Shown in pieces: positions 1 to 20,812 of a stretch of DNA of 64,000 bases; position 1 is the first letter of the stretch, and every line of letters begins with the position of its first letter. Position numbers and translations under genes: made by a program. The notes under the pieces are model-generated. The model did not search any database. It was not told where the DNA came from and worked only from the letters and a program-made list of their open reading frames with translations. The stretch comes from Pseudomonadota bacterium (GTDB taxonomy: Bacteria; Pseudomonadota; Gammaproteobacteria; JBCCGL01): NCBI GenBank assembly GCA_039029275.1, contig JBCCGL010000010.1, positions 61 to 64,060 on the forward strand. Reading direction: 5' to 3'.

Positions 1-465
1 GGCGAGCTCAGCTATCCGGATCAGGAACTCCGAGACGCCAGCACCGTGTCGCTCGGGGGCGGCCTGACGCAAAATGCAACCGGACGGTTCTCGGCTGTGT
101 ACTTCACCAGCGCGTTTATTGGTGCCGATGAAGCCGACGGCAGTTCAGTCGACGCCCGTCGCGCTGCAGAGCGCAACTTCGCCGGTTTGCAAGCGGGCGT
201 CCAGTTATCGATTACCTCTGGCATCCGCGTGGTAAATCGAATCTCGCTGGTAACCAGCCGTTACGACGAGGCGACCGCTTTAACCAGCGGCGACCGCAAG
301 CGCGACGACGATCTGGTTTTACTTAGCTCAAAGTTGGTGTGGTTGATCAACGAATCGTTTAGCGTGATTGGCACGCTTCGCTACAGCAACAATCAATCGA
401 ATATCGACGCGCTCGAATACGACGGTTTTTCCGGCGATGTGCGGGTACGATATGATCTCAACTAA
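1..465 (+). CDS. 3' portion of a gene continuing from upstream of the window; putative outer-membrane beta-barrel protein (C-terminal fragment)
   Basis: Frame 1 is open from nt 1 with no stop, so the CDS is 5'-partial. The sequence shows alternating hydrophobic/polar beta-strand pattern and ends '...DVRVRYDLN', which is OMP-like. Confidence 0.45.
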   Translation, partial: GELSYPDQELRDASTVSLGGGLTQNATGRFSAVYFTSAFIGADEADGSSVDARRAAERNFAGLQAGVQLSITSGIRVVNRISLVTSRYDEATALTSGDRKRDDDLVLLSSKLVWLINESFSVIGTLRYSNNQSNIDALEYDGFSGDVRVRYDLN

Positions 466-485
466 ATCAGGACTATGACTCCTGC

Positions 486-5609: not shown

Positions 5610-6341
5610 TTACTGTTGCGCGATTCGAATCGTTACACAAAGACCAACAGGTTTGGCCGCCGTCAGCGAAATCAATCCACCGTGGTTTTTAACAATCCGA
5701 CTCACTAGCCCCAACCCCGCACCGACCCCTGCTCGGTCTCGCTCGCCGTGTCGGAACATTTGCAACACATGGTCGTATTGAGTTGGGTCGATCCCGACTC
5801 CATTGTCGATAACCTGAAACACGGTCGAACCTTTATCTACTTCGGCCGCCAAAGTTATCTCCAACGGTCGATCATCTGATGCGAAACGAAGCGAATTCTC
5901 CACCAAATAAACGAGCATCTCGACCAGCTGATCTTTGTCCCCTGTTAACGTTGCTGATAACCGCGGTAATTCGAGTGTCACATCTGCCTCATCCAGAAGC
6001 GGCTTAACTTTGGAATAGAGATGGCTAAATATCTCGTCGCAACTCACATCTGGTCTCGTGCTAAACCCGTTGACCAGAACACCATAACGCGCAATTGCAT
6101 CGATTAAGCCGTCAATCCGCTTAAGAGATAAGTCAATGTAGTACTCCGACTCATCCTGTTGCTCGTTCCGTGCGTCGCCGAGAGACTCATACAAACGCTC
6201 CGAGAAATAGCGCAAGTGACGAACCGGTGCAGACAGATCGTGCGCCAGAATTTTAAGAAGCTGAGACAACTCCGGGTCAGATGCTGCTTGCGGATAGTCA
6301 GGTTTTGGTGGAGTGATGTTTTCCGGCTGCGCCATGGGCAT
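5610..6341 (-). CDS. soluble sensor histidine kinase (HisKA + HATPase_c), no adjacent response regulator
   Basis: H-box 'LAHDLSAPVRHL'. G-boxes 'DNGVGID' and 'GAGLGL'. No TM segments. Confidence 0.75.
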   Translation of the reverse strand: MPMAQPENITPPKPDYPQAASDPELSQLLKILAHDLSAPVRHLRYFSERLYESLGDARNEQQDESEYYIDLSLKRIDGLIDAIARYGVLVNGFSTRPDVSCDEIFSHLYSKVKPLLDEADVTLELPRLSATLTGDKDQLVEMLVYLVENSLRFASDDRPLEITLAAEVDKGSTVFQVIDNGVGIDPTQYDHVLQMFRHGERDRAGVGAGLGLVSRIVKNHGGLISLTAAKPVGLCVTIRIAQQ

Positions 6342-6491
6342 TGGTAGACACGAAAATCGTTAAAATGGGAGGCGATTGATCGCGCATTCGCCGTGACGAT
6401 CGTTATCTATATAGATTGGAAAACCGATATTTGCGACATGGAAAATGTCACTCGGTTGAAACAGTAAAACCTGTTTCTGAATTCCGCCTGC

Positions 6492-7502
6492 TCAGGCCGG
6501 GAAGAAATCGAGCGGAATGCGAACGGTTGTGTCGCGTACATCCTGAGCACCGAAGTCGATCAGCTTGATGCGCGCAACGAGTTTTCCCTCCAATGCGGGA
6601 TCTTCAAGATCAGACGCGACGACTTTTACTTCAACCACGGCACCGCTCTTGGCAATGGTGATGGCAAAAACGACCTTGCCTTCCAGTGCAGGGTTTTTAC
6701 GCAAAGCGCGATTATAGATGCGGTAAAACGCGCCCTTGTTACGCTCTATTGTGCGCTGGATTTCTTCTTCGTTGCGCAAGCCACCTGTGGTTTTTTTGGT
6801 CTGCTCTTTTTTGGCTGCTTGCTGTACGGCTTTGGTCGCGGTTTCGCTACTCACCTGGCTGGTTTCGCGCGCAGCAACCTGGACATCAGTTGTTTGCTTC
6901 TGAACGTTCTGCGTGCCAACGCCGCCGCTGCCGCTTGTGGTGGTCGATGTGACTGATCGCGTCGCGGTACCGCTTCCGGATTTTGCTGTGACAATGCTAG
7001 TCTGTCCACCGCTCGAAAGCGTATCCTGCTTCAAGGTCGTGAGGCTGCTGGTATCACGTAAATCACTGAGTGAATCGGATAACGCGAGCACGCCGATTTT
7101 CTTCACCTTTTCACGCGCGGCTTCTACCGCAGCCGTTTCAGTAACCGGCTCGGTTTCCGGTTGGGGTTCTACCGGCTCAGGTTCCTCTACTTTTTCTTCG
7201 ACCTTAGGCTCCTCCGGCTCCTCTTCCGGCACCGGCTCCTCTTCTACTTTTTCCTGCTCGACCGGCTCCGGCGGCGGTGGTGGTGGCGGTGCCTGTTTTT
7301 CTTCGATAATGCGTGCGAGACGCGGGGGCAATTCAACTACCTGTGTACGTTCGGGTTCCGGTAACTCGATAAACGGGATGATCAAACCGAACAACAAAAA
7401 TATGCCTAACAGAACAAGCAAAATACGCCAAAAGCGGCGCAGCTCCCCCAATAAGGGATCCCACGGTAACTGCGGTTGGTGAAAAGCGATGGTCGTCGCC
7501 AT
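6492..7502 (-). CDS. tonB: energy transducer TonB
   Basis: N-terminal TM anchor. Pro/Glu/Lys-rich spacer (PPPPPPPEPVEQEKVEEEPVPEE). C-terminal TonB domain '...ALEGKVVFAITIAKSGAVVEVKV'. Confidence 0.85.
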   Translation of the reverse strand: MATTIAFHQPQLPWDPLLGELRRFWRILLVLLGIFLLFGLIIPFIELPEPERTQVVELPPRLARIIEEKQAPPPPPPPEPVEQEKVEEEPVPEEEPEEPKVEEKVEEPEPVEPQPETEPVTETAAVEAAREKVKKIGVLALSDSLSDLRDTSSLTTLKQDTLSSGGQTSIVTAKSGSGTATRSVTSTTTSGSGGVGTQNVQKQTTDVQVAARETSQVSSETATKAVQQAAKKEQTKKTTGGLRNEEEIQRTIERNKGAFYRIYNRALRKNPALEGKVVFAITIAKSGAVVEVKVVASDLEDPALEGKLVARIKLIDFGAQDVRDTTVRIPLDFFPA

Positions 7503-8002
7503 TAAGACTCCACCGCCTTTTGCACGACGGATAGCGAAATCCGACTAAAGTCCGCCGCGGTACACGTGGTCATGATTTTTTTCAGCAGGCGAAATGGAAT
7601 TTCCTTATCGCCGGAAATGGTGATCTCGCGCCCGAGTTCCTCTTCGGCCGGGTTTCTGTATCGACGCAGCCCGGCAAGCACATCAAGCTCGGCCTTTAGT
7701 TCAGCCAGCACGCCGCCCTCAGTGGCCTGCGCCGTTTCGGTCGTCATCACTTTGCGATTTTGTACCAGAATTTCGTTCGCGGTTACCATGATCGTCACGG
7801 TTTCACGCGGTTTTTGCTGTGCAACGGACTCGGGCAGTTGAATCGCTTTGTTGTTTGAAACCTGCACCTCGGATGAATTCACCAAAAGAAAAAACACCAG
7901 AATGGTGAAGATGTCCATCAGCGATATCATGTTGAAACCGGGGTGCTTGCTGGCACGCTCATGGTTTCGTTGCATACGTTTTGTGCGACGCGTCTGTTTC
8001 AT
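7502..8002 (-). CDS. exbD: biopolymer transport protein ExbD/TolR (copy 2)
   Basis: 166 aa, single N-terminal TM 'ISLMDIFTILVFFLLV', ExbD periplasmic domain. Confidence 0.85.
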   Translation of the reverse strand: MKQTRRTKRMQRNHERASKHPGFNMISLMDIFTILVFFLLVNSSEVQVSNNKAIQLPESVAQQKPRETVTIMVTANEILVQNRKVMTTETAQATEGGVLAELKAELDVLAGLRRYRNPAEEELGREITISGDKEIPFRLLKKIMTTCTAADFSRISLSVVQKAVES

Positions 8003-8493
8003 TTTGCATCACCCGGCGGGGGCGCATCGCCGATCGAAATTGCTGGGAACAATTCACGAGAGACGCCATCACTGTGCGCAACGCGCATCGCGTCCATGAC
8101 GGTGACAAGAACGTCGTACTGGACGTCTTCCTCGAGCAAAACTCGCGCATCGAGCGTTTCGGGTGAGCGCGATTTAATTTTCACCAGTAACTCGTTTAGT
8201 GGTGCAACGGGATAAGTATCCCCCTCACGATCAAACGCCTTCACGAGCTTGTTCGCGGCAAACACCTGCAAACTCTGCTCACGCACGACGACCGCGAGGT
8301 CCAGTGATTGTTTGTCTTCTTCGACCTGCGCAGGCTCATCCCCGGAAGGCAAATTGAGTTCGAGAATTGTGATGCGCGAAAACACAGCCGTAATCAACAA
8401 AAACGGCACGAGCACCACCATCAAATTCATAAAGGCGGTGATATTGAGCTCGGCAGGCTCGCGACGGGATCGCAAGCGGCGGCGGATGCTCAT
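7999..8493 (-). CDS. exbD: biopolymer transport protein ExbD/TolR (copy 1)
   Basis: 164 aa, 'ITAFMNLMVVLVPFLLITAVF', 4-nt overlaps with flanking genes (operon). Confidence 0.85.
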   Translation of the reverse strand: MSIRRRLRSRREPAELNITAFMNLMVVLVPFLLITAVFSRITILELNLPSGDEPAQVEEDKQSLDLAVVVREQSLQVFAANKLVKAFDREGDTYPVAPLNELLVKIKSRSPETLDARVLLEEDVQYDVLVTVMDAMRVAHSDGVSRELFPAISIGDAPPPGDAK

Positions 8494-9167
8494 CTATTGG
8501 CGCCCTCGGTGGCGGCCTGCGAGGCGCTTTGGGCGCGCATACGACGGGTGACTGCATTCACGAATTTGACCGAAGCCATTTCCATGCTGTCAACGAGTTC
8601 CGTCGTCTTGGCCTGAATAACAGAGTGGATCAGCAGCAAGGGAATACCCACCATCAGTCCGAATGCGGTGGTGTTCATTGCAATTGAAATACTGGCCGAC
8701 AGCAAATTGGCTTTCTCTGACGGATCGGCTGCCGACACTGCGGTGAACGCCTCGATAAGACCCATAATCGTGCCGAGAAGGCCAAGCAGTGTGGCGATGT
8801 TTGCAAGCGTTGCGATGTAGTGCGTGCGCTTCTCGAGGCGAGGGATAATTTCCATAAGTCCTTCTTCCATCGCCATCTCGATATCACCAGCACGTCGCAA
8901 TGTGCGTGCGTTGTCGAGCCCGTAGCTGATCATTTTGGAAATCGCCGCTTTGGATTTACCGACAAAATTCGCAGCCTGCTGAAAACTTCCGTTCTCGAGC
9001 ATGGGGCCAACCTGTTTCCACGCACGGCTGTTACTCATCTTGGTGCCCGAGAGGTACAAATAGCGTTCAAGAGCAATGGCCAAACCAAATACCAGCACCA
9101 GTGCGATGAAGTACATAAACATTCCACCGGACTGGAAAAATCCGATAAATGACGTTAGAAAATCCAT
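8490..9167 (-). CDS. exbB: MotA/TolQ/ExbB proton-channel protein
   Basis: 225 aa, three TM segments, conserved C-terminal TolQ/ExbB core 'ISIAMNTTAFGLMVGIPLL'. Confidence 0.9.
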   Translation of the reverse strand: MDFLTSFIGFFQSGGMFMYFIALVLVFGLAIALERYLYLSGTKMSNSRAWKQVGPMLENGSFQQAANFVGKSKAAISKMISYGLDNARTLRRAGDIEMAMEEGLMEIIPRLEKRTHYIATLANIATLLGLLGTIMGLIEAFTAVSAADPSEKANLLSASISIAMNTTAFGLMVGIPLLLIHSVIQAKTTELVDSMEMASVKFVNAVTRRMRAQSASQAATEGANR

Positions 9168-9223
9168 GAATGGCTCCCGATTAATAATTCGGTAAACAAA
9201 TGATAGAAGATGACAACCCAGAC

Positions 9224-9502
9224 TTAGTTGCTATTCGCATCCGACAAAGGGTTCAGCTGACGATAGTAGCTCAACTCCCGACGAAACACATCGCGATCAA
9301 CCGGTGTTAGCGCATGCGACAAGACGCTGTCTTGAGGCCGACCGATCGACGAGCCCGGCAAGGCTTTCTTCCACGGCACGATGGTGATCGTTTTCGGTAG
9401 TTCGCGGTTGCCGATAATAGAGATACTGTCGAGCTCAAGCTCATCCTGTGCCGCGACCGAGGACGCCAGCAGCAGTCCCAGGGCAATTAGTCGATACTTC
9501 AT
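9224..9502 (-). CDS. small secreted hypothetical protein (92 aa) in TonB cluster
   Basis: Signal peptide 'LIALGLLLASSVAA'. 4-nt overlap with upstream TPR lipoprotein gene. Confidence 0.45.
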   Translation of the reverse strand: MKYRLIALGLLLASSVAAQDELELDSISIIGNRELPKTITIVPWKKALPGSSIGRPQDSVLSHALTPVDRDVFRRELSYYRQLNPLSDANSN

Positions 9503-10119
9503 GAATTGTTGCTCCGGTTTTTCATGCGTCGCTGCAAATCAATGATCCAGCCTTTAATTTCCTTACTGATTTCACCCTGCAATGCCTCGTAGGCATTGTA
9601 ATGCTTGAGCGCACAATCCAGATCCTGCAAATAAACGTCACATAGTATGCCAAGATTCAAGTGAGCGAGTGAATACGTTTCATCTCCTGAAATCGCACGT
9701 TGATACGATTCACGCGCCTCACCGAAGAAACCGCTACGTCGTTGAATTAGCCCAAGATAATTGTGCGCAACAGCGTTGCCCGGGTGATTTTGCAGCACGA
9801 CTTCGAATGCACCTTGAGCCTCTTCTTGTTGCTCGTTGCTAAAGTAGGCAATGCCAAGGTTCAAACCCAGAGCTGCATATTGTGGGTATTCGAGAACCGG
9901 CTCGCGCAATAGTTCGATCGCGGTCTGTGGTGCGGAATTTTGCAATGCAGATACAGCCGCACGATGCACCTCGATAACGTCATCTGGGATCTCTGACGCA
10001 ACAACTTCCGCCGAATCCAATTGATCAAGCCCTTCCTGTTTGGGCGTGCTACACGCGATCAACGCGGCAAGTAAAAGGATCGTGCTTGCGAGTCGGCAGG
10101 TATGCTTCATTGCTTTCAT
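9499..10119 (-). CDS. TPR-repeat lipoprotein
   Basis: Lipobox 'LLAALIACS'. Repeated TPR consensus (W-LG-Y...A...F..A). Confidence 0.7.
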   Translation of the reverse strand: MKAMKHTCRLASTILLLAALIACSTPKQEGLDQLDSAEVVASEIPDDVIEVHRAAVSALQNSAPQTAIELLREPVLEYPQYAALGLNLGIAYFSNEQQEEAQGAFEVVLQNHPGNAVAHNYLGLIQRRSGFFGEARESYQRAISGDETYSLAHLNLGILCDVYLQDLDCALKHYNAYEALQGEISKEIKGWIIDLQRRMKNRSNNS

Positions 10120-13010
10120 GGCGTCAACTCCGCCACATAGGGATCGGCGACTTCAGTTTTGTTGTAACGCGCGGGAAGAATCTTGGCCAGGGCCTGCAGG
10201 CTGCGCTTTACCCACTCATCGAACACACCTTGCGGCAAGCGCGCTATGTTTATCTCGAACACTTCGATGGCTTGTTCCTCAAATGGAAAGGCTTCGTCTT
10301 CGAGCAATATCTCGTATTGCTCGAGTTCAAGTTCCGACAAACCTGCCGGGCGCTCAGAGTCGAGCAAGGCCTCGCTCAGGCTGCGATAAATTTCACCCGT
10401 GTGGTAGGTCGCTGCGGTGCTGACTTCCTGCACACCGTAGGCTGCAGCGTCTGAATACATATCGAGAGCGGTAGTCATATGCACTTTTTTACGCGCCAGA
10501 CTTTCCTTTAAGGGGATGCTCAACGTTGCGTTTTGATACGCTGCCATTACGGGTTCAGCCAAAATCAGTACAGCGTTAGCGGCAAGGTACCGGGTGCGCG
10601 GCGTTCGCGCGTTGCCTCCACGCTCTTCGACCTGAACTAGCTGATTGAGCCACTCATTCGCGACCTTTTTGTCGCCCAACTCGTTAGACAGATCCGCCAT
10701 TTTTTGGCGCAGTTCGGTCGCTTCGTCGAGTGGATCCGGATACTGAGAAATGTAACGCGCGTATGCTTGTGCCGCTTGTGCAAGCGCACCAGATTCTTCG
10801 TAAAGTTCTGCTGCCTGCAATCCTGCCTCGCGACGAAACTGCGGATTGTCACTCTGGGTTCCAAGGCGGTTGAACTCTCCTGCGGCCGCGAGTTTCTGAT
10901 CACTATTTAAATACGCGACGGCAAGATTGCGCGTAACTTCAGGCTGCAGCTCGCTTTCTGGAAAACGCGTACGGAACTGTTTAAGGATTGCGATTGCTGG
11001 CACCCACTGTTCGGAATCGAGCAATACGGCAGCGGCGTCATATTCGGCGGTCGCTCGTATCGGAGAATCGGGAACAGCTTCACCTACGCGCATAAAGTGA
11101 CCAACCGCTGTGTCTGTTTGACCGATCGCTCTTGCCTCCTCGCCTTGTCGGTAAATCGAAACGGCCAACAGTTCGGTCACACCTGCGCGGCGTTCATCGT
11201 TGTCCGCGAGAAAACGAAGAACCTGCGAATAAGCGGATTCAGCTCGAGCAAAATTTGAAAGTTCGAACTCCGAGTGCGCGATCACTGACCAGGCGGAAAA
11301 ACGCAGCGTCGATTCCGCCGGCGGATTGAGTTCAACCACTTGCGTCGCCACTTCGATGGTTTGTTCGAGTTCGACCAGGGCATATAACTCGTTCGCCGCC
11401 CGCGTCATTACCGCTACCGCATTGGGATGATCGGGAAACTGATCAAAAAAGAACTGCGCACTTTGCACGCTGGCCAGCTTCCATCGTACTGACTCAGTTT
11501 GCAAATACCCCAACTCATTTTCTACCTTCGCCGCAACAATGGTCTTACGCTCAGGCAGCGGCGGCAGAAGCTCCTGATGCTTATCATAAGAGATCATCGC
11601 CGCGTAACCACTTTCGGCCGCTTTGTCATGCAGCTTATATTTGTACGCCGCCTGTTCGTATTCAATTGTAGCTTCGCGATAGCGTCTGCTTTCGAACAAC
11701 GCTTCAGCCATTAAAAAATGCATTCCGGGCGTCTGCTCATTTGCTGGAAAGTGCGTCAGGTAACGACCGTAGTAGCTCACCGCTTGTGCTAACAGTTCCT
11801 GCTGTTTTGCGGGATTTTTTTCTTCCTGCCCGAGTGCGTGTGAGTATTGCGCTAATTCGACGATGTAGTTTTCAAGGTGAGTGCGAACCTCACCAATCAG
11901 TTCAACGTCTTGAATATTCCACTGCGCGTTACGCTCTTCATACAACAAAATGTAATTGCGTTTTTCTTCGAGCACTTTTTCCGGGAAGTCGGCGCGCGCG
12001 TAGGCGTTGATCGCTCGATGCTGAAAAATCGGCGCCTGCCGACTCTGCGGGTGTTGGCGAACAAATTCCAACTCGGCTGTGGCTGAGTCCGCGTAGCGTT
12101 CTTTTTCCAAATAGTGCGCGGCGAGGCTGCCGTAGATCAAATCCTCGTAGAGGCGCGCGTTCCCGCCTTTGAAGTACTCGGGGATGCTGGATGGACCATC
12201 GAGGTACGACATACTCAAACTGACCGCGCGCAGGGCGTCGCCGAGTAATTCACGATCGGTGCGATTTTTTGCCTGCATCTCGAAATAGCCTTCGTCAAGG
12301 CCCGGCAACGTCAGATCGAACAGCGCAATAAATTCCTCGACACCTTCGTCGAAGCGGCTCTGTTTAAACAGCGTCCAACCGCGTTTATAGAGCGCGCGTT
12401 CGTAGTAGCTGGACGACTCACCAAAATCGATCACCTGTTGATAGGCAAGCGCAGCACCGGACAAATCCTCCGCACTGAACATGAGCTCGGCTCTGCGAAA
12501 ATGGACTTCATCGAGCCCTTCAAGATTGGGATAGTTTTCCGCCAGAGAATTCAAGGTTGCGAGTATGTCGTCGCTGCTGCCCTGCTGCTCATATGTTTTT
12601 GCAAGCTGGTAGTAAACGCCCGGTGCGGTGTCGCTCTCCGGATACTCGGCCAGAAGTCGCTCGTAAAAACCTGCCGCCTCGGAGTAGTGTTTGTCGACTG
12701 CTTGACGGTATTCGATCTTCGCGACCTCATTGGTTTCATCGGGCAGCGGAACCGACTCACCGAGTTCGAGCGTCAAGTCAGCGATACGGCGAATGATTTC
12801 AGGCCGCGCCGTGTCATTGGGTTCCAACTCCAACAACAGCTGGTAGTTTTTAAGTGCCTTGTTGCGCGCATCCGGAATTGGCTGGCTGTCGGGCACAACC
12901 GGTTCCACGGTCGGCACCGCAGATAAGGTTTCAGCCTGCATGACAACGGGTTCGGGCGTCGTGCATGCACTGGTCATTAAACCCAAAACCACGATCAGGC
13001 CGTACCTCAC
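10116..13010 (-). CDS. large tetratricopeptide-repeat protein (964 aa)
   Basis: Signal/lipoprotein-like N-terminus 'LIVVLGLMTSAC'. Many TPR-like helical repeats throughout. Confidence 0.7.
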   Translation of the reverse strand: MRYGLIVVLGLMTSACTTPEPVVMQAETLSAVPTVEPVVPDSQPIPDARNKALKNYQLLLELEPNDTARPEIIRRIADLTLELGESVPLPDETNEVAKIEYRQAVDKHYSEAAGFYERLLAEYPESDTAPGVYYQLAKTYEQQGSSDDILATLNSLAENYPNLEGLDEVHFRRAELMFSAEDLSGAALAYQQVIDFGESSSYYERALYKRGWTLFKQSRFDEGVEEFIALFDLTLPGLDEGYFEMQAKNRTDRELLGDALRAVSLSMSYLDGPSSIPEYFKGGNARLYEDLIYGSLAAHYLEKERYADSATAELEFVRQHPQSRQAPIFQHRAINAYARADFPEKVLEEKRNYILLYEERNAQWNIQDVELIGEVRTHLENYIVELAQYSHALGQEEKNPAKQQELLAQAVSYYGRYLTHFPANEQTPGMHFLMAEALFESRRYREATIEYEQAAYKYKLHDKAAESGYAAMISYDKHQELLPPLPERKTIVAAKVENELGYLQTESVRWKLASVQSAQFFFDQFPDHPNAVAVMTRAANELYALVELEQTIEVATQVVELNPPAESTLRFSAWSVIAHSEFELSNFARAESAYSQVLRFLADNDERRAGVTELLAVSIYRQGEEARAIGQTDTAVGHFMRVGEAVPDSPIRATAEYDAAAVLLDSEQWVPAIAILKQFRTRFPESELQPEVTRNLAVAYLNSDQKLAAAGEFNRLGTQSDNPQFRREAGLQAAELYEESGALAQAAQAYARYISQYPDPLDEATELRQKMADLSNELGDKKVANEWLNQLVQVEERGGNARTPRTRYLAANAVLILAEPVMAAYQNATLSIPLKESLARKKVHMTTALDMYSDAAAYGVQEVSTAATYHTGEIYRSLSEALLDSERPAGLSELELEQYEILLEDEAFPFEEQAIEVFEINIARLPQGVFDEWVKRSLQALAKILPARYNKTEVADPYVAELTP

Positions 13011-15094
13011 TGCAGCGGCACCTCGGTTTCATCTGGAAGATCATCTGCTGTCTCAGGAATCTCCACAGCCGCCCGATCGTAAACCTGTGCGAGCGAATAG
13101 CGCGCTTGAAGTTGATAGCTCGTTAGTCTCTCGCTTAAGTTATTCAGACGCTCGACCGCCAGAGATTCAAGTCGTCTCCTCAGTTGCGCTGCAACTCGCT
13201 CGACATCGACGAAAGCACTTTCAACGCGACTACGTCCATCACGAATTCGGACGTCGAGCACGTCGTAATTATCCGGCGCCGACTGTTGCGCCGATTTCAG
13301 CGATGCCAGACGGGTTGCCGCGATTCCAATCTGGATTTCGAGTTCGGCAAGCTGCTTTTCGATCTCACGTTTACGAGCGAAGTAATCGGCTTGAACCTCC
13401 CACAACAAAACACCGCGCAGCAAACGCGCTTTCTCCCACGCTGGCATAAGATCCTGCGCCTGCGGATTGCTGCTCAGTGCCGCGCGCTGAACCGATTGAG
13501 CAATACGTAACTCACGCGCGTGCGGCGACAGCTCACCGCCACTTTTGTAGCTCGCCGGTTCTCGAGGTTCGTCAAAAAACCTGTCGAACCCATACAGCGT
13601 TGCCAAAGGGCTAACGGTTGTGGAATTTGCGACCTCGCTGAGGTGTTTGCTGACACTTTCGATCGACGCCCATTGACGTTTGTGCGCAGGCCTGGCGAAG
13701 AAAATTAAATCACCCGCCTGCTCCGCTTGCCCGACCTGTGTCTGCCAGTTGTTGTATCGAGTGCGCGTTTGATCAAGATCGAGTTGCTCGACGTAATCTT
13801 GCGTTAGGGGTAGTTGGCGAGCATAGCGTTGCTCGCGCGTCGATAGCATGTCCTCAAATGCGTCAATTGATGTTTGCCAGTGTTGCAGGTTGCGTCGGAG
13901 CTGGTGAATTTCCCGCAAATTCTGAAACGTCTGCTGAAACGCGTTGCTCGCCATCAAATCGCGAAAATAGCGCAGTCCTGCGAGATCGGATTGTTTCAGA
14001 TCGGCCCCAACCCTGATTCGTACCGGAAGTGCAAGCAGGTTGTCGAGCAGTTCGCCGTCGCGCACGGAATCGATTGTTCCAGCAAGATTAACCTGTTCAC
14101 GCTCGTACGCGTCCAACGCAAACTGATATCCGTCGGCTGCCTGCGAATACGCGCCGAGTTCGCCGTAGGCATAGGGAATCGCCAGTAATGCCTCCTGCAC
14201 GGAGGGATCGCTACTGTCGCGCTGGGCCAGTGCTCTCCACGGCGCCAGCGCCTGCTGATAGCTCTCTGCTTCGCCGTCTGCCCAGCCGCTGCCAAGCAGT
14301 GCCTGATTCGAGTACGGCCCTTCCAGACGCACAAAACTTAAATACGCTTTGGCCGCGCTGAAATCTTGCTCGTCGAGCAATCGATACCCGATCGCGAGGT
14401 TGGCCTTGTCACGCAACGTGTAGACTTCATCATCGACCGGCGGCGCTTGCGCCACTTTTTCCAGCGTCAGCAATCCTTCCTGCAGATCGCCATTTTGCAT
14501 CTGCGCAATACCGTAGTTGTACTGCGCGTAGGCGCGCCACGCGCCCGGCATCTCTTGCCAGTCGGCCAAAGACTCGATTGCGTCCGCAGGGCGAAACTGA
14601 CGCAGGGCGATGGTTGCGCGAATCAGCGATTGTTCGGCATGGATTGGCGAGCCAACCTCTGCCATCACTTTTTGCATGGCTTGATCGGCGTCAGATAAAT
14701 ACCCGCGCTGGTACAAGAGCTTACCGAGAAAAAACCACGCGCGATCACGTACGCTGGCCGAGACCTCTTCAGTCAGCAACTGTCGGAAAATCTCTTCCGC
14801 CTCGATGTGTAAGCCGTACTCGAGCTTAAGCCCGCCCATTAACAGGCGCGCGTTTTCGACGTGATGTTCGATGCGGTCGCGCTCCTGCGAAACGAGCAGG
14901 TTGACCAGCGCGTTGAACGGTGCGCTCTGATAGTGGTAAAACAAGACTTCGCCATAATGGATATCGCGAATTGCCCCAATATCCTGCGCGCGCAAACTTG
15001 TTGGCGCTTCTTCAGCTGATGCGTTTACACACAGCGCCGCGAATGCAATCGCGCACAGCAGCGAGCGAAACAGGCCTGAACGGCGAACTACCAT
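13007..15094 (-). CDS. tetratricopeptide-repeat protein (695 aa), secreted
   Basis: Signal peptide 'LLCAIAFAALCVNASA'. TPR-like repeats (e.g. 'AWFFLGKLLYQRGYLSDA'). Overlaps downstream gene start by 4 nt. Confidence 0.7.
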   Translation of the reverse strand: MVVRRSGLFRSLLCAIAFAALCVNASAEEAPTSLRAQDIGAIRDIHYGEVLFYHYQSAPFNALVNLLVSQERDRIEHHVENARLLMGGLKLEYGLHIEAEEIFRQLLTEEVSASVRDRAWFFLGKLLYQRGYLSDADQAMQKVMAEVGSPIHAEQSLIRATIALRQFRPADAIESLADWQEMPGAWRAYAQYNYGIAQMQNGDLQEGLLTLEKVAQAPPVDDEVYTLRDKANLAIGYRLLDEQDFSAAKAYLSFVRLEGPYSNQALLGSGWADGEAESYQQALAPWRALAQRDSSDPSVQEALLAIPYAYGELGAYSQAADGYQFALDAYEREQVNLAGTIDSVRDGELLDNLLALPVRIRVGADLKQSDLAGLRYFRDLMASNAFQQTFQNLREIHQLRRNLQHWQTSIDAFEDMLSTREQRYARQLPLTQDYVEQLDLDQTRTRYNNWQTQVGQAEQAGDLIFFARPAHKRQWASIESVSKHLSEVANSTTVSPLATLYGFDRFFDEPREPASYKSGGELSPHARELRIAQSVQRAALSSNPQAQDLMPAWEKARLLRGVLLWEVQADYFARKREIEKQLAELEIQIGIAATRLASLKSAQQSAPDNYDVLDVRIRDGRSRVESAFVDVERVAAQLRRRLESLAVERLNNLSERLTSYQLQARYSLAQVYDRAAVEIPETADDLPDETEVPLQ

Positions 15095-15684
15095 TCTTTG
15101 ATAACGAATTCGGGCTGCTCTTTGCTCTGTCGATCTGAAATGATCAACTCGACGTATTTGGGCCCTAATTCTTTCTCGACAACCATGGTAGAACCACGAC
15201 GGTACTCACGGCCGTTGGGCCCAATGCCGGTGAATATAGCGATGAGTTCGTGCTCGCCGGTTGTGAGATTTCCAGTGAATAGCCGTTGCACACCGCCGCG
15301 CAGAAGCGCTTCGGTCTCACGCGGCGTGTAGAGGTAATTAGCGGTGTTTGTGCCGTCGATGGTCAGTTGCACCGAATCGAGGGCGAAGAACGTGCCCACG
15401 TCCATCGACACGAAAACCGAGATCTGTGTACTGGCCGGAAACAGCAAATCTTCTTCGAGAATGTAGAGGTCTCGATTGATATCAAGCAGTGTCTGTTTGA
15501 GCGTTTGGATCTCGGTGTCGAGGTCGCTGACGCTGTCCTCGTCATTGGCGCTGGCAACACCAATCACAAGTAGTAGTGTCAGCAGGAGGTTCGTAAATGA
15601 TTTCACTGTTTTTCCGATGTTGAGCCACGAGCAAGAAAGTGTATGCATACAGATTAACTTTACATCATGCTCGCATACTGGCAA
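15088..15684 (-). CDS. secreted hypothetical protein, first gene of the TonB/TPR cluster (possibly DUF3450-like); true start likely internal
   Basis: Internal signal peptide 'KSFTNLLLTLLLVIGVASA', then a coiled-coil segment. 7-nt overlap with the next gene. Confidence 0.4.
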   Translation of the reverse strand: MPVCEHDVKLICMHTLSCSWLNIGKTVKSFTNLLLTLLLVIGVASANDEDSVSDLDTEIQTLKQTLLDINRDLYILEEDLLFPASTQISVFVSMDVGTFFALDSVQLTIDGTNTANYLYTPRETEALLRGGVQRLFTGNLTTGEHELIAIFTGIGPNGREYRRGSTMVVEKELGPKYVELIISDRQSKEQPEFVIKEW

Positions 15685-15854: not shown

Positions 15855-16883
15855 TCATTTTGATTCACTAAATCCGCTGGAGTAATGTATTTCACCGTTG
15901 TTATCCACGATTACGGCTTCAAACCCTGCTGTGTTGTCGATCAGTTCGAGACCATCCGTAAGCCCTAACACGAAAACGCCTGTCGCCAGTCCGTCTGTGA
16001 GCGTTGCATCGGGCCCGATCACAGTTGCGCTGCGCATCCTGCGCGCCGAGTCACCAGTATTCGGATCCAGAATATGGTGGTAGCGAACGCCATCCTCGAC
16101 AAAAAAGCGCTGATAGTCACCCGAGGTTGAAACAGCCTCATTTGCTACTGGCAGAATCGCGGCTACAGCGTCATTCTGGCGCGGGTCCTGCACGCCAATG
16201 GTCCATGGGCGACCGTTGTGGTCACCAATAAAACGCGAATCCCCTCCAGCGCTGATTTGCGCAAACCGCACCCCGGCTGCACGCCAAAGCGCGGCGACAC
16301 GCTCCACCGCGAAACCCTTGCCAAGCCCGCCAAATCCGACGCGCACCCCGTCTGCACTGTATGCGACGGTCTTGTTTGCCGAATCCAGAACCACGCGGCG
16401 AAAGTCAATCAGGTCTCCCAATTCGACCAGCTCAACATTGTCAGGACGTTGCGATGCGCGAAAATCATATCGGTAGCCCGCACTCAGAAATGTGACATCG
16501 AATGCGCCCTGCGTCTGCTTGAACAACTGCGCGGCCTGTTCGAACAACAGGAACATTTCCTCGTCAACTTTTACGGGACCGCGCGCCGCGTTTTGATTGA
16601 CGTAGGCAAGCGGATTGTCCTCGCGATAGGCACTATAGGTCTTCTCGATTCGCTTGAACTCGCGCATCGCATCAGCGAATAATCGCGTTGAATCAAACTC
16701 AGGCTCATCCCACAGCTTGAGGACGATATCGGTGGTCATTGCCGTATCGCGATGTTCGCGCCAGTCGGCGGATGCTGTCTGGATGATCATGATAATCGCA
16801 AAAAAACACACACCGACAAGGTGAAGCACGCGCGGTGTCGCATTCCGTACGTCCAGCTGTGTTAATGGCGTGATCGGATTCAT
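15855..16883 (-). CDS. apbE: FAD:protein FMN transferase (ApbE family)
   Basis: 342 aa, N-terminal TM/signal, ApbE motifs 'GGIGKGFAVERV' and 'ATVIGPDATLTDGLATGVFVLG'. Confidence 0.85.
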   Translation of the reverse strand: MNPITPLTQLDVRNATPRVLHLVGVCFFAIIMIIQTASADWREHRDTAMTTDIVLKLWDEPEFDSTRLFADAMREFKRIEKTYSAYREDNPLAYVNQNAARGPVKVDEEMFLLFEQAAQLFKQTQGAFDVTFLSAGYRYDFRASQRPDNVELVELGDLIDFRRVVLDSANKTVAYSADGVRVGFGGLGKGFAVERVAALWRAAGVRFAQISAGGDSRFIGDHNGRPWTIGVQDPRQNDAVAAILPVANEAVSTSGDYQRFFVEDGVRYHHILDPNTGDSARRMRSATVIGPDATLTDGLATGVFVLGLTDGLELIDNTAGFEAVIVDNNGEIHYSSGFSESK

Positions 16884-18026: not shown

Positions 18027-19349
18027 TTAATAGAGAACGTGATCGATGCGCGGGTGATTGGCCGTTGCCAACCGCGCAGCGAGAATCTTGGAAAACGTCT
18101 TGTAGTAGTAAAGCTGCGTGTTCGATGAAATCTTGTCGAAAAACTCGTGGCTGATACGGTACAGGCTGACTGGCGACACGGCCTCGATTGTCGCGATACT
18201 CTTCTCCTGATTGATAAATCCCATCTCGCCAAAGCAGTCTCCGCAGCCAATGACTTCCATCAATCGGCCGCTGCGGCGCGCAACCATCTCGCCCGAAGTA
18301 ACCAGATAAAGGTGGTCGTCGACTTCGCCTTCTTCGAGCACCACATCGCCAGGATTGTGTCGCACCAGAGTACTCGATTCGGCCAACTGGTCGATCTCAG
18401 CTTCGGTCATTTCCTTGAACACTGCGATATCCCGCAGTGCGGATCGTCGTTCGCTAAGACTCGTCGAGCGTGACACCGGTCGCATCCGATCGGCCATCCG
18501 TGAGATTTCGTCGGCGAATTCTCCGCCGGTCTGGTAGCGCTTGTCGGGGTCTTTCTGCAGTGCCTTGTCGAGAATATCGGACAAGTGCCCGGGAAGGTCG
18601 CTGCGGACATCGCTTAAGCGAGGCGCGGGTTGTCCAACCACACAGCGGAATAAATCACGCACCTTTTTTGCTTCGAACAGCTGCTTTCCGGTCAGCATTT
18701 CAAACATGACTGTGGCGAGCGAATACAAATCGCTTTGCGGCCCTAACGACACCCCGAGAATCTGCTCTGGCGACATGTAGTTCGGGGTGCCCAGCGACGG
18801 ACCACCTTTGCTGATCGCTTTTTGCGTTGTCGAGATTGCGATACCAAAATCGAGCAATTTTGATACGCCTTCGTCTGTCAGCATAATGTTAGAGGGCTTG
18901 ATATCGCGATGAATGATGCCCTGCTTATGCGAGTAGTCGAGCGCTTGCGCGCACTCAAAAATAATTTCCAATACCTTATGCGGCGGCAGTTGTTTCTGTC
19001 GTTTGCCGTACTTGCTCAGTGGCGTGCCGCGCGCGTATTCCATTATCAGGTAATTGAGATTTTCCTCGATGCCTGCGTCGTACAAGGCAACGATATGCGG
19101 GTGTTTGAGTTTGCCCGCAGCGGCGGCTTCGGTCAGAAACGCACGCTGCGCGGCGGGGAATTTTTTCGAATCGGTCTCACCACTGTCATTGAGCGATATC
19201 TTGATTGCGACCTCACGGTAAATCACCGGATCGTAGCCTTTGTAGACCACGCCGCACGTGCCGCTACCGAGACACTGCCCGACTTCGTACTTGCCGATTC
19301 GATCAGGTACGTTAATACCTAGTGACAATGCGTGGGTTGGTTTAGCCAT
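18027..19349 (-). CDS. Hanks-type Ser/Thr protein kinase fused to a C-terminal cyclic-nucleotide-binding (CAP-effector) domain
   Basis: Kinase subdomains 'LGSGTCGVVYKG', 'VAIK', 'HRDIKPSNIML', 'DFGIA', 'PNYMSPEQ'. C-terminal cNMP-binding domain 'GEVDDHLYLVTSGEM...FGEMGFINQEKSIATIEA'. Start set at the internal ATG (MAKPTHAL) to avoid overlap with mpl; the ORF could extend to 19436. Confidence 0.8.
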   Translation of the reverse strand: MAKPTHALSLGINVPDRIGKYEVGQCLGSGTCGVVYKGYDPVIYREVAIKISLNDSGETDSKKFPAAQRAFLTEAAAAGKLKHPHIVALYDAGIEENLNYLIMEYARGTPLSKYGKRQKQLPPHKVLEIIFECAQALDYSHKQGIIHRDIKPSNIMLTDEGVSKLLDFGIAISTTQKAISKGGPSLGTPNYMSPEQILGVSLGPQSDLYSLATVMFEMLTGKQLFEAKKVRDLFRCVVGQPAPRLSDVRSDLPGHLSDILDKALQKDPDKRYQTGGEFADEISRMADRMRPVSRSTSLSERRSALRDIAVFKEMTEAEIDQLAESSTLVRHNPGDVVLEEGEVDDHLYLVTSGEMVARRSGRLMEVIGCGDCFGEMGFINQEKSIATIEAVSPVSLYRISHEFFDKISSNTQLYYYKTFSKILAARLATANHPRIDHVLY

Positions 19350-19408
19350 TCGTATCTTGCGTTTTTCTACGTTGCCAATTCGTGGTTGTTCAATACAAGA
19401 TCGTTTCG

Positions 19409-20812
19409 CTAGCGCTTTGCGACTTCGATTGCACAACCCTGTTTATTTCTTTCGACCAGCGACTTTATTACTTTATCGTGTATGTTACCAAAACTGCCGT
19501 TTGACATGATCAATACATGATCGCCATTCTGCACGCTTGCCAGCACCGCTTTCGTGACAGAGTCGACGCTGGCCATCAAGCCTACGTGACCGTGTTGCAC
19601 ATGTCGTTCGATACCTTCCAGAGTTTCGGTGTCGGCGCAATGTACCAGAGTTTCGTCAGCCAAATCAAAGGTTTGCGAAAGTTCTCTGGAGTGAGTTCCC
19701 ATTCGCATTGTGTTTGATCGCACATCTACGACGGCGAGAATCCGCTCATTCACGCCAATCGTGCGACGCAATGCAACAATTGTGGCTTTAATTGCGGTGG
19801 GATGATGGGCGAAATCGTCGTAGATCGTGATGCCATCGATCTTCGCGCGCACTTCGAGCCGACGCTTAACACCGGCGAACGATGTCAGCGCTGCCGCAGC
19901 ATGCTCGGGTGTGACGCCGACGTGGCGGGCCGCTGCTATTGCAGCCAGCGCGTTCATGGCGTTGTGCGCGCCTACCATCGACCACAGCAGATCGACAGGC
20001 GCGTCGCTGTGCGGCGGGACTATCCTGGCGGATACGGGGTCAGACCTATCAAGCTGCCATGCGTTCGCCGCAGACCCTGCGTTTGAACCAAAACGTTCTA
20101 TGTCTGACCAGCAGCCCATTGCCAGAACCGACTCTAAATTCGCATCATCGCCATTGACAAGCAGACGGCCGCTGGCGGGTACCGTGCGAATCAGGTGATG
20201 AAACTGGCGTTTAATATCGCTGAGTGAGTCAAAAATATCGGCATGATCGAACTCGAGATTGTTCAGTATCAAGGTGCGCGGGTGGTAGTGGACAAACTTC
20301 GAGCGCTTGTCGAAAAACGCGGTGTCGTATTCATCTGCCTCAACAACGAAAAACGGCGCCTTTCCCAAGCGCGCCGAAATGCCAAAGTTATGCGCAATCC
20401 CGCCGATCAAGAACCCCGGTTGCAACCCGGCGTGTTCGAGGATCCACGCGAGGATACTACTGGTTGTCGTCTTCCCGTGCGTGCCAGCGACTGCAAGTAC
20501 CCAGCGATCCCGAAGAGCATTTTCCAGCAGCCACTGCGGTCCGGACGTGTAGGCGATTCCCATTTCCAGAATTGATTCGACTTCGACGTTACCGCGCGAC
20601 AGCGCATTGCCAATCACGACACAGTCGACATCCTCGGGAATGTTTTCTGCTCTGTACCCCTCGTTCAGTTCGATCCCCGCTTCCTGCAATTGGGTACTCA
20701 TGGGAGGGTAGATACCCGCGTCAGAGCCGCTCACATCGTGACCGAGTTCACGCGCAAGCAGCGCAATGCCACCCATAAACGTGCCGCAAATTCCAACGAT
20801 ATGCAGTTTCAC
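19409..20812 (-). CDS. mpl: UDP-N-acetylmuramate:L-alanyl-gamma-D-glutamyl-meso-DAP ligase (murein peptide ligase)
   Basis: 'MKLHIVGICGTFMGGIALLARELGHDVSGSD' Mur-ligase N-terminus, 467 aa. Confidence 0.9.
   Translation of the reverse strand: MKLHIVGICGTFMGGIALLARELGHDVSGSDAGIYPPMSTQLQEAGIELNEGYRAENIPEDVDCVVIGNALSRGNVEVESILEMGIAYTSGPQWLLENALRDRWVLAVAGTHGKTTTSSILAWILEHAGLQPGFLIGGIAHNFGISARLGKAPFFVVEADEYDTAFFDKRSKFVHYHPRTLILNNLEFDHADIFDSLSDIKRQFHHLIRTVPASGRLLVNGDDANLESVLAMGCWSDIERFGSNAGSAANAWQLDRSDPVSARIVPPHSDAPVDLLWSMVGAHNAMNALAAIAAARHVGVTPEHAAAALTSFAGVKRRLEVRAKIDGITIYDDFAHHPTAIKATIVALRRTIGVNERILAVVDVRSNTMRMGTHSRELSQTFDLADETLVHCADTETLEGIERHVQHGHVGLMASVDSVTKAVLASVQNGDHVLIMSNGSFGNIHDKVIKSLVERNKQGCAIEVAKR

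What the first reader, a model, noticed from the sequence alone, without database searches (positions are those of the whole stretch)
5610..15684. Atypical TonB energiser locus: secreted protein - 3 TPR proteins - small secreted - ExbB - ExbD - ExbD - TonB - orphan histidine kinase
An operon-like string with 4-nt overlaps couples an ExbB-ExbD-ExbD-TonB energiser to two giant TPR proteins (964 and 695 aa) and a TPR lipoprotein. No TonB-dependent receptor or TtpC-type large MotA protein is present. The duplicated ExbD and the TPR partners differ from canonical iron-uptake TonB systems, which suggests a dedicated energised process such as OM-associated polymer uptake or envelope function. A soluble orphan histidine kinase lies immediately downstream.
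Basis: partly seen in the sequence, partly recalled or inferred. Interest (0 to 1): 0.55.

Follow-up and report, generated by a model that had tools for sequence, protein, structure and literature searches.

The report
Agl-Glt-type envelope motor core cluster
This locus is not an odd iron-uptake TonB system but a copy of the known "core complex", the widespread ancestor of the Myxococcus gliding and spore-coat machine, whose job outside myxobacteria is still unknown.

Summary
The ten ORFs are real and lie at the stated coordinates. Nine of them (window 6492-15606, minus strand) form one conserved unit. The same nine genes, in the same order and on one strand, appear in essentially every one of 80 related loci whose contig reaches far enough. 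The histidine kinase appears in none.

Gene order and sizes match the gammaproteobacterial "core complex" of Luciano et al. 2011 (gltC-gltD-gltE-small gene-aglR-aglQ-aglS-gltG). The "TonB" is a GltG-type protein. It passes the NCBIfam AgmX/PglI C-terminal domain cut-off, has a TonB-CTD fold, and falls below the TonB sequence cut-offs. ExbB and ExbD are far below the TonB and Tol equivalog cut-offs.

So this is a new member of a known kind. Its function is unknown in the literature; published proposals are a basal envelope transport or secretion machine.

- The 92-aa protein is probably a divergent GltF/CglF.
- The 172-198-aa first gene is a conserved subunit that the papers I read do not mention.
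- The first TolR-like paralogue carries Asn in place of the proton-binding Asp. Related loci often keep Asp in only one of the two paralogues.

Interest is moderate.

The parts
15088..15606 (-). p198/p172, the first gene of the unit. It is a secreted protein with a signal peptide, one long helix and an eight-strand beta-sandwich. It has no Pfam or NCBIfam family. The longest ORF runs to 15684.
   Evidence: A gene call of 172 aa on an identical contig. Present in 70 of 80 related loci at 39-67% identity. 5511 clusters in the protein database, none with a Pfam domain, some named 'AraC family transcriptional regulator' by NCBI. AF2 model pLDDT 83. Foldseek gives only weak, generic beta-sandwich hits. 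A cleaned HMM also hits the ORF directly upstream of GltC in about 35 delta-type loci, E 4e-8 to 1e-3.
13007..15094 (-). GltC-like periplasmic protein, 695 aa, with a signal peptide and a weak TPR signal.
   Evidence: Sub-threshold TPR_19 and YbgF hits. Present in 74 of 80 loci in the same position. The family HMM hits the gene upstream of GltD in delta-type loci, with E down to 2e-18. It also hits the 654-aa protein of the Myxococcales MAG locus L083, which itself hits NCBIfam GltC at 2.3e-30. Size and position match CJA_3319, Sfri_1230 and others, which Luciano et al. assigned to MXAN_2541.
10116..13010 (-). GltD-like TPR lipoprotein, 964 aa (lipobox LMTSAC).
   Evidence: Several TPR families above cut-off, and three YbgF/CpoB-like stretches. 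The HMM hits L083 GltD at 1e-85. The length is the same as CJA_3318 and TERTU_3746, which were assigned to MXAN_4870.
9499..10119 (-). GltE-like TPR lipoprotein, 206 aa (lipobox LIAC).
   Evidence: TPR_16, TPR_2 and other TPR families above cut-off, and a weak NCBIfam GltE hit at 1.8e-5. Present in 76 of 80 loci. The HMM hits the L083 GltE-like protein at 2e-31, which hits NCBIfam GltE at 1e-23.
9224..9502 (-). p92, a small secreted protein with the motif GNxELPKVLYIVPWK plus a C-terminal PxDRDVFxR element. It is probably a divergent GltF/CglF. It corresponds to the 'additional gene' of the published core complex.
   Evidence: Present in 73 of 80 loci. Motif conservation shown. Delta-type loci carry a small secreted protein in the same slot, and 16 of 23 of these hit NCBIfam NF033764 CglF (= GltF), best E 1.6e-5. 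hhalign of the two families gives P = 5.4e-5 over 55 colinear columns, against P of 0.085 or worse for one reversed and 20 column-shuffled controls. Reciprocal hmmsearch gives E down to 1.6e-5.
8490..9167 (-). AglR-like MotA/TolQ/ExbB-family channel subunit, 225 aa.
   Evidence: MotA_ExbB at 89.8 bits. TolQ 54 bits and ExbB 39 bits are far below the equivalog cut-offs of 221 and 206. The best solved relatives are TolQ (35 bits), then ExbB (30), then MotA (21). Present in 68 of 80 loci.
7999..8493 (-). First ExbD/TolR-like paralogue (AglQ position), 164 aa. It has Asn where ExbD and TolR have the transmembrane Asp.
   Evidence: ExbD at 55 bits. The column is N in 40 and D in 25 of 65 gamma-type orthologues. 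In delta-type loci it is N in 16, D in 7, other or gap in 4.
7502..8002 (-). Second ExbD/TolR-like paralogue (AglS position), 166 aa, with the transmembrane Asp kept.
   Evidence: ExbD at 64 bits. Asp in all 62 aligned gamma-type sequences. In delta-type loci D in 20 and A in 6; all six A cases have D in the first paralogue.
6492..7502 (-). GltG-like transducer, 336 aa. It has a short N-terminus, one transmembrane helix, a Pro/Glu-rich and Ser/Thr-rich linker, and a TonB-CTD-fold C-terminal domain.
   Evidence: NF033768 AgmX/PglI C-terminal domain at 68.5 bits, cut-off 40. NCBI names the identical MAG protein the same way. In the AF2 model the CTD (about residues 245-333) has pLDDT above 90. 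The top 18 Foldseek PDB hits are TonB, FusB, HasB or TolA C-terminal domains, with target-normalised TM-score 0.37-0.65.
15855..16883 (-). ApbE-family gene directly upstream on the same strand. It is a possible accessory gene, not shown to be part of the unit.
   Evidence: PF02424 hit. Adjacent on the same strand in 28 of 80 loci: 20 upstream of p198 and 8 just downstream of GltG. Also adjacent in Simiduia and in close relatives. None of the nine families contains the D..[ST]GA[ST] flavinylation motif.

Best explanation
The locus is a stand-alone Agl-Glt-type 'core complex'. This is the conserved gene set from which the Myxococcus gliding (Agl-Glt) and spore-coat (Agl-Nfs) machines were built.

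Proposed mechanism, inferred by homology:
- Five copies of the AglR-like channel protein surround a heterodimer of the two TolR-like proteins in the inner membrane.
- Only the second TolR-like protein (166 aa) has the proton-binding Asp.
- Proton flow moves the single-pass GltG-like protein. Its long linker and TonB-fold C-terminal domain reach a periplasmic scaffold.
- The scaffold consists of two outer-membrane lipoproteins (GltD-like and GltE-like), soluble GltC-like, the small GltF-like p92 and p198.
- p92 probably offers a beta-strand to the GltG C-terminal domain, as a TonB box does, and a C-terminal helix to GltC.

The machine therefore delivers force to the inner face of the outer membrane, not to a receptor plug. 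The cargo is unknown. Published proposals are a basal envelope transport or secretion function.

Shown here: gene content, order, conservation, family and fold assignments. Inferred: stoichiometry, contacts and function.
For: - Architecture and sizes match the published gammaproteobacterial clusters (for example CJA_3312-3319: 323, 173, 181, 231, one skipped locus tag, 244, 964, 660 aa), which Luciano et al. assigned to MXAN_4867, 6860, 6861, 6862, 4869, 4870 and 2541.
- The nine-gene colinear order holds in 80 loci from different species.
- The GltG-type C-terminal domain is above its NCBIfam cut-off and has the TonB-CTD fold.
- Family HMMs from the window and its relatives hit GltC, GltD, GltE and GltG in the right order in a Myxococcales MAG cluster. 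That cluster's proteins hit the NCBIfam GltC, GltE, GltG and CglE models.
- The same HMMs find about 80 delta-type loci with either the core or the motor-less Glt/Nfs layout.
- p92 links to GltF.
- The AglR5QS-GltG model, the GltG CTD-GltD contact and the GltF bridging contacts come from PMC11761067. The AglR-GltG two-hybrid interaction comes from PMC3169522.
- AglQ D28N abolishes proton conductance, motility and sporulation in M. xanthus (PMC3858216).
Against: - I made no direct comparison with M. xanthus DK1622 sequences and built no tree. The link runs through NCBIfam models, a Myxococcales MAG and the paper's tables.
- NCBIfam GltE, GltG and GltJ hits to the window proteins are far below the equivalog cut-offs, and GltC gives no hit at E 0.01 or better.
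- GltG here lacks the cytoplasmic FHA domain of M. xanthus GltG.
- No outer-membrane barrel or surface component is encoded in the unit, so how force would reach a cargo is open.
- The first paralogue's Asn equals the change that inactivates M. xanthus AglQ. Either the orthology labels are swapped or the motor works differently.
- No experiment on any gammaproteobacterial core complex was found.
Confidence: 0.85

Rival explanations
1. A dedicated TonB-ExbB-ExbD energiser that powers uptake through one or more TonB-dependent receptors encoded elsewhere, with the TPR proteins as accessory factors.
For: The family-level hits are MotA_ExbB and ExbD. The C-terminal domain has the TonB-CTD fold. Some databases name homologues 'TonB family protein'.
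Against: ExbB, ExbD and TonB scores are all below the curated cut-offs, while the AgmX/PglI domain is above its cut-off. There is no receptor in the 64-kb window among ORFs of 600 aa or more, and none among the recurrent neighbour families I inspected by sequence in 80 loci. The motor is always fused into one unit with GltC, GltD, GltE and the two small proteins. Motor-less relatives keep GltG with the TPR proteins.
Confidence: 0.05
2. A Tol-Pal-like paralogue. The TolQ/TolR/TolA-like motor acts on CpoB/YbgF-like TPR lipoproteins to coordinate the outer membrane with peptidoglycan (envelope integrity or division) rather than to transport a cargo. This is a rival about function and is compatible with the core-complex identity.
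For: The channel protein scores better with TolQ than with ExbB. GltD has three YbgF/CpoB-like stretches, TIGR02795 at 90.6 bits against a cut-off of 90.1. Some sources name homologues 'TolA-binding protein' or 'BamD'. In Simiduia an L,D-transpeptidase and an M15 peptidase follow the cluster.
Against: No TolB or Pal is in the unit. The TolQ, TolR and TolA equivalog scores are far below cut-off. The peptidoglycan-enzyme neighbours are seen only in the one Simiduia locus and were not among the recurrent downstream neighbour families.
Confidence: 0.15
3. A working gliding-motility machine like Myxococcus Agl-Glt.
For: Homology to AglRQS and to GltC, D, E, F and G.
Against: GltA, GltB, GltH, GltK, GltI, GltJ and CglB are absent from the unit. 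The unit encodes no outer-membrane barrel or adhesin. Luciano et al. state that the core genes are not sufficient for motility and that most carriers are not known gliders.
Confidence: 0.03

Closest known systems
Gammaproteobacterial Agl-Glt 'core complex' (Luciano et al. 2011, PMC3169522; Wartel et al. 2013, PMC3858216), for example Cellvibrio japonicus CJA_3312-3319 and Marinobacter Maqu_1595-1602
   Same: Same genes, same order and near-identical sizes, including the small unnamed gene between gltE and aglR. All genes lie on one strand with overlapping stops and starts. The function is unknown.
   Different: The sequences are only 35-43% identical (GltD) to species-representative genomes. 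The literature counts seven genes plus one 'additional gene'. Here nine are conserved: the first gene (p198) is not mentioned in the papers I read, and the 'additional gene' appears to be a GltF homologue.
Myxococcus xanthus Agl-Glt gliding machine and Agl-Nfs spore-coat machine
   Same: An AglR/AglQ/AglS-type motor, a GltG-type transducer with the AgmX/PglI C-terminal domain, GltC/D/E-type TPR proteins and a GltF-like small protein.
   Different: No GltA, B, H or K outer-membrane proteins, no GltI or GltJ, no CglB, and no FHA domain on GltG. The motor genes are in the same operon rather than a separate cluster. The AglQ-position protein has Asn at the Asp that is essential in M. xanthus.
TonB-ExbB-ExbD systems, including Xanthomonas-type exbD1/exbD2 and Vibrio TonB2/TtpC
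   Same: The same protein superfamilies, a single-pass transducer with a Pro-rich linker and a TonB-CTD fold, and in some cases two ExbD genes.
   Different: All sequence scores are below the equivalog cut-offs. There is no linked receptor and no TtpC. The obligate partners are TPR lipoproteins.
Tol-Pal with CpoB (YbgF)
   Same: A TolQ-like channel, TolR-like plug proteins, a TolA-like transducer and CpoB-like TPR modules that face the outer membrane.
   Different: No TolB or Pal. There are two different TolR-like genes, giant TPR lipoproteins in place of a small CpoB, and the extra p198 and p92.

Membership tests
Agl-Glt 'core complex' (Luciano 2011) | gltC, gltD, gltE, gltG, aglR, aglQ and aglS homologues clustered in one same-strand unit | tested here: met
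   Searches give the window genes. Searches show the same order in 80 loci.
Agl-Glt 'core complex' (Luciano 2011) | Gene order and sizes as in the published gammaproteobacterial clusters, with one extra small gene between gltE and aglR | tested here: met
   Table S3 lists, for CJA_3312-3319, 323/173/181/231/[skipped locus tag]/244/964/660 aa. The window has 336/166/164/225/92/206/964/695 aa.
Agl-Glt 'core complex' (Luciano 2011) | Transducer carries the GltG/GltJ-type (AgmX/PglI) C-terminal domain | tested here: met
   NF033768 at 68.5 bits, cut-off 40.
Agl-Glt 'core complex' (Luciano 2011) | TPR proteins homologous to myxobacterial GltC, GltD and GltE | tested here: met
   The test is indirect. 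Family HMMs hit L083 proteins at 2.6e-5 (GltC), 1e-85 (GltD) and 2e-31 (GltE). The L083 GltC-like and GltE-like proteins hit NCBIfam GltC (2.3e-30) and GltE (1e-23), and its 516-aa transducer hits GltG (7.5e-33). The GltC HMM reaches 2e-18 in delta-type loci. M. xanthus sequences themselves were not available.
Agl-Glt 'core complex' (Luciano 2011) | Motor proteins group with AglR, AglQ and AglS rather than with TolQR or ExbBD in a phylogeny | not tested
   No reference AglRQS sequences could be fetched. The only evidence is that the scores lie below the TolQ and ExbB equivalog cut-offs.
Canonical TonB-ExbB-ExbD system | ExbB and ExbD reach the equivalog scores | tested here: not met
   TIGR02797 39 bits against 206; TIGR02805 38 against 135; ExbD models 17-24 bits against 123-216.
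Canonical TonB-ExbB-ExbD system | TonB C-terminal domain by sequence | tested here: not met
   Pfam TonB_C 19.5 bits against 24.6. TIGR01352 25.8 against 27.1. The fold is nevertheless that of the TonB CTD.
Canonical TonB-ExbB-ExbD system | Functional link to TonB-dependent receptors | tested here: not met
   No receptor among ORFs of 600 aa or more in the window, and none among the recurrent neighbour families I inspected by sequence. The rest of the genome cannot be searched with these tools.
Vibrio TonB2/TtpC system | Large TtpC MotA-like protein and TtpB in the cluster | tested here: not met
   The only MotA-family protein is 225 aa.
Tol-Pal system | TolQ, TolR and TolA equivalogs with adjacent tolB and pal | tested here: not met
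   TolQ 54 bits against 221, and TolR 30 against 127. No TolB or Pal family was hit in the unit.
Complete Myxococcus Agl-Glt or Nfs machine | Group A genes (GltA, B, H, K outer-membrane proteins, GltI, GltJ) present | tested here: not met
   None in the unit or its flanks. Only a GltF-like small protein is present.

The most novel reading that the evidence does not exclude
The gammaproteobacterial core complex may be a nine-gene machine rather than seven. On this reading:
- Its 'additional' 92-aa gene is the ancestral GltF. It acts as a soluble adaptor with a TonB-box-like strand between the GltG C-terminal domain and GltC.
- The first gene (p198: coiled coil plus beta-sandwich) is an unrecognised subunit shared with delta-type and motor-less clusters.
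- The stator is an asymmetric AglR5:TolR-like heterodimer that needs only one proton-binding Asp. The Asp is kept in one or the other paralogue in different lineages.
Probability: 0.5. Interest if true: 0.55.

Novelty: new member of a known kind. Interest (0 to 1): 0.4.

Why it matters
The core complex is one of the most widespread envelope-spanning, proton-driven machines with no known function.

Recognising this locus as a member prevents its mis-annotation as a TonB uptake system. It also flags the first gene's current mis-naming as an AraC regulator.

Three side results give concrete handles for working out what the ancestral machine does and how a TolQR-like motor was turned into a motility and spore-coat device. 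They are a probable GltF homologue in the core, a further conserved subunit, and a stator that often keeps only one proton-binding Asp.

Tried and rejected
- The first 15-sequence GltD alignment was too divergent to seed the genome scan. I repeated the scan with 8 sequences.
- My first p198 HMM was contaminated by one 721-aa ORF spanning both p198-like and GltC-like sequence (L079). It produced false p198 hits inside GltC ORFs. I rebuilt the HMM without that sequence, and the 'p198-GltC fusion' idea was dropped.
- I looked for an ApbE target. None of the nine families has a D..[ST]GA[ST] flavinylation motif.
- Foldseek of p198 against the PDB gave only weak, generic beta-sandwich matches, with best E 2.5e-3 and query-normalised TM-score at or below 0.40. 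No function can be read from the fold.
- NCBIfam gave nothing relevant for p198, for p198-like delta proteins, or for p92 directly.
- A PDB sequence search with the GltG-like protein found nothing relevant.
- A literature search for the locus tags of published gammaproteobacterial clusters found no paper. I found no functional study of the core complex outside myxobacteria.
- The promoter and terminator scans were no better than shuffled sequence, so they say nothing about co-transcription of the kinase.
- The histidine kinase as a partner was rejected on conservation.


Full report
**Observation**

The region holds ten minus-strand ORFs at the coordinates given. From upstream to downstream they are:

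| Coordinates | Length | Note |
|---|---|---|
| 15684/15606-15088 | 198 aa, or 172 aa by gene call | first gene |
| 15094-13007 | 695 aa | |
| 13010-10116 | 964 aa | |
| 10119-9499 | 206 aa | |
| 9502-9224 | 92 aa | |
| 9167-8490 | 225 aa | |
| 8493-7999 | 164 aa | |
| 8002-7502 | 166 aa | |
| 7502-6492 | 336 aa | |
| 6341-5610 | 243 aa | follows a 150-nt gap |

Most junctions overlap by 4 nt. G+C content is even across the region.

Pfam and NCBIfam confirm MotA_ExbB (225 aa), ExbD (164 and 166 aa), many TPR families (964 and 206 aa) and a HisKA/HATPase_c kinase (243 aa). Three labels need correcting:
- The 695-aa protein has only a sub-threshold TPR hit.
- The 964-aa protein is also a lipoprotein (lipobox LMTSAC; Cys16 invariant).
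- The 336-aa 'TonB' is below both TonB cut-offs but passes NF033768, the AgmX/PglI C-terminal domain (68.5 bits against 40).

All proteins tested are 100% identical to proteins of an NCBI MAG labelled 'Pseudomonadota bacterium'.

**What it is**

AgmX and PglI are the old names of GltJ and GltG, parts of the Myxococcus xanthus gliding machine. Luciano et al. 2011 (PMC3169522) showed that gltC, gltD, gltE, gltG, aglR, aglQ and aglS, plus 'an additional gene', form one putative operon. They called it the 'core complex' and found it in several Gammaproteobacteria, one Betaproteobacterium, Geobacter and Fibrobacter. Its function was unknown.

Their Table S3 lists, for Cellvibrio japonicus, CJA_3312 (323 aa, GltG), 3313 (173, AglS), 3314 (181, AglQ), 3315 (231, AglR), a skipped locus tag, 3317 (244, GltE), 3318 (964, GltD) and 3319 (660, GltC). 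The window has 336, 166, 164, 225, 92, 206, 964 and 695 aa in the same order.

Later papers still describe a seven-gene core of unknown function. [quoted passage not shown]

**Conservation**

The best 80 are 35-43% identical. They come from Woeseiaceae, Steroidobacteraceae, Thiodiazotropha, Chromatiales and other lineages.

BLASTP of the ten window proteins against all ORFs of these loci shows the same nine genes, in the same order, on one strand. This holds wherever the contig reaches far enough. Counts out of 80 are:

| Gene | Loci with a hit |
|---|---|
| p198 | 70 |
| GltC | 74 |
| GltD | 80 |
| GltE | 76 |
| p92 | 73 |
| AglR | 68 |
| first ExbD | 66 |
| second ExbD | 65 |
| GltG | 59 |
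| kinase | 0 |

In the closest relative with downstream sequence (60% GltD identity), two oxidoreductase genes lie between gltG and the same DUF2914 gene. The kinase is therefore a lineage-specific neighbour. Simiduia (Cellvibrionaceae) has the same nine genes.

**Link to myxobacterial Glt proteins**

M. xanthus sequences could not be fetched, so the link is indirect, but it holds at each step.
- Distant GltD hits lead to locus L083, from a Myxococcales/Kofleriaceae MAG. L083 encodes a 654-aa protein, GltD, a 380-aa TPR protein, a 124-aa protein, a 516-aa protein and a small beta-barrel protein.
- Those proteins hit NCBIfam GltC (2.3e-30), GltE (1e-23), GltG (7.5e-33) and CglE (5e-14).
- HMMs built from the window proteins and their orthologues hit L083 GltC (2.6e-5), GltD (1e-85), GltE (2e-31) and GltG (3e-12), each in the matching position.
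- A metagenome scan with delta-type GltD gave 80 more loci. They fall into two layouts: GltC-GltD-GltE-small-AglR-ExbD-ExbD-GltG, and the motor-less GltC-GltD-GltE-small-GltG.

**The transducer and the motor**

The AF2 model of the 336-aa protein has a transmembrane helix (residues 18-44), a low-confidence linker that is largely without regular structure, and a confident C-terminal domain. By sequence the linker is Pro/Glu-rich and Ser/Thr-rich.

The 18 best PDB matches are all TonB, FusB, HasB or TolA C-terminal domains, with target-normalised TM-score 0.37-0.65. The fold is TonB-like, but the sequence family is GltG-type. The cytoplasmic FHA domain of M. xanthus GltG is absent.

The channel protein is nearer to TolQ than to ExbB, and far below both equivalog cut-offs.

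In the published AlphaFold model (PMC11761067):
- AglR5-AglQ-AglS-GltG resembles TolQ5R2-TolA.
- The GltG linker lies in a GltD crevice.
- GltC connects to the outer-membrane barrels.
- GltF bridges the GltG C-terminal domain (by a beta-strand) and GltC (by a C-terminal helix).

1. *p92 is probably GltF.* Delta-type loci have, in the same slot, a small secreted protein with the motif IEGxIQKPxAFYILQR...SFVPKIxxSVEKxPF.
   - 16 of 23 of these hit NCBIfam CglF, best E 1.6e-5. CglF is GltF (PMC4488436).
   - The p92 family (motif GNxELPKVLYIVPWK...PxDRDVF) aligns to this family over 55 colinear columns, with hhalign P = 5.4e-5.
   - One reversed and 20 column-shuffled controls give P of 0.085 or worse.
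   - Reciprocal hmmsearch reaches E 1.6e-5.
   - One locus (L160) has an intermediate motif.
   - This conflicts with the 2011 assignment of gltF to the Myxococcales/Bdellovibrionales-only group.
2. *p198 is a further conserved subunit.* It is the best-conserved small subunit (39-67% identity) and has 5511 database clusters and no Pfam family. A cleaned HMM finds a homologue directly upstream of GltC in about 35 delta-type loci, including motor-less ones. Its model is a signal peptide, one long helix and a beta-sandwich. Foldseek gives no informative match. The papers I read do not mention it.
3. *The stator often keeps only one proton-binding Asp.* The first TolR-like paralogue has Asn where ExbD and TolR have the transmembrane Asp.
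   - Across gamma-type loci the first paralogue has N in 40 and D in 25. The second has D in all 62 aligned sequences.
   - In delta-type loci most have N in the first and D in the second. One group has D in the first and A in the second.
   - Many lineages therefore keep exactly one Asp, in either paralogue.
   - In M. xanthus the AglQ D28N change kills the motor.

**Rivals**

- *A TonB uptake system* is disfavoured. The sub-threshold scores, the lack of any linked receptor and the obligate TPR partners all count against it.
- *A Tol-Pal-like envelope role* remains possible as a function. GltD has YbgF/CpoB-like modules. TolB and Pal are absent, however.
- *Gliding* is unlikely, because the outer-membrane and cytoplasmic Glt parts are missing.

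**Verdict**

It is wrong on the kinase, unsupported on uptake, and missed the published family.

The locus is a new member of a known kind whose function is still an open question. Interest is moderate. The value lies in correct naming and in the three side observations, each of which needs the tests listed under next steps.

Noticed in passing
window 15855-16883 (-); L001-L080, L084, L165, L166: An ApbE-family gene (FAD:protein FMN transferase) sits next to the cluster on the same strand in 28 of 80 related loci. In 20 it is upstream of the first gene and in 8 just downstream of gltG. It is also adjacent in the window, in Simiduia and in close relatives. The position changes but the adjacency is kept. 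None of the nine families has a canonical flavinylation motif.
   Followed up: partly
for example L050:5956-6450, L035:5914-6429, L015:5841-6473: A TlpA/ResA-like periplasmic thioredoxin (WCGPC) lies within 4 kb upstream of the first gene in 32 related loci, in several between ApbE and that gene. There is no such gene in the 171-nt gap between ApbE and p198 in the window.
   Followed up: no
window 5610-6341 (-): The 243-aa histidine kinase has no hydrophobic segment that I could see in its sequence. It is absent from all 80 related loci and from the closest relative's equivalent position, so it is a lineage-specific neighbour. No response regulator turned up among the neighbouring genes that have Pfam assignments.
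   Followed up: yes
window 7999-8493 and 7502-8002 (-); L082-L163: The transmembrane Asp shows a reciprocal pattern in the two TolR-like paralogues. Pairs are N/D in the window and most loci, D/D in Steroidobacteraceae-type loci, and D/A in one delta-type group. Many lineages keep only one Asp.
   Followed up: partly
window 15088-15606 (-): NCBI names the identical MAG protein, and at least one homologue, 'AraC family transcriptional regulator'. The protein has a signal peptide, a long helix and a beta-sandwich, with no DNA-binding domain. This looks like an annotation error.
   Followed up: partly
L106:1971-3169: In one delta-type core locus, ORFs that look by eye like MglB (roadblock type) and MglA (Ras-like GTPase) lie directly upstream of the p198-like first gene. 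I did not check this with a family search.
   Followed up: no
L079:6710-8872: One 721-aa stop-to-stop ORF matches both p198 and GltC. It could be a real fusion, a frameshift, or two genes in one frame. It contaminated my first p198 HMM.
   Followed up: no
window 41697-45959 (+); upstream flanks of 21-22 Steroidobacteraceae-type loci: A gene pair of about 859 aa (with at least one CxxCH haem-binding motif) and about 547 aa (twin-arginine-like N-terminus) lies within 4 kb upstream of the cluster in 21-22 related loci. The window has a pair of similar sizes (856 aa with Laminin_G_3, and 547 aa) about 26 kb away. I did not test whether the two pairs are homologous.
   Followed up: no
window 30766-32407 (+): An MbnB/TglH/ChrH-family RiPP-modification enzyme gene is followed by a DUF2063 gene. 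This pairing is typical of a small peptide-modification locus.
   Followed up: no
window 18027-19436 (-) and 37386-40007 (-): A Ser/Thr protein kinase fused to a cyclic-nucleotide-binding domain keeps its position near the cluster in two close relatives. Separately, an 873-aa protein carries a hydrazine-synthase alpha middle domain.
   Followed up: no
window about 1-1862 (+): Gene calls on the identical contig show a Slam-like protein (TPR_19 + SlipAM) and a FecR-family protein at the start of the window. They are not conserved neighbours of the cluster.
   Followed up: no
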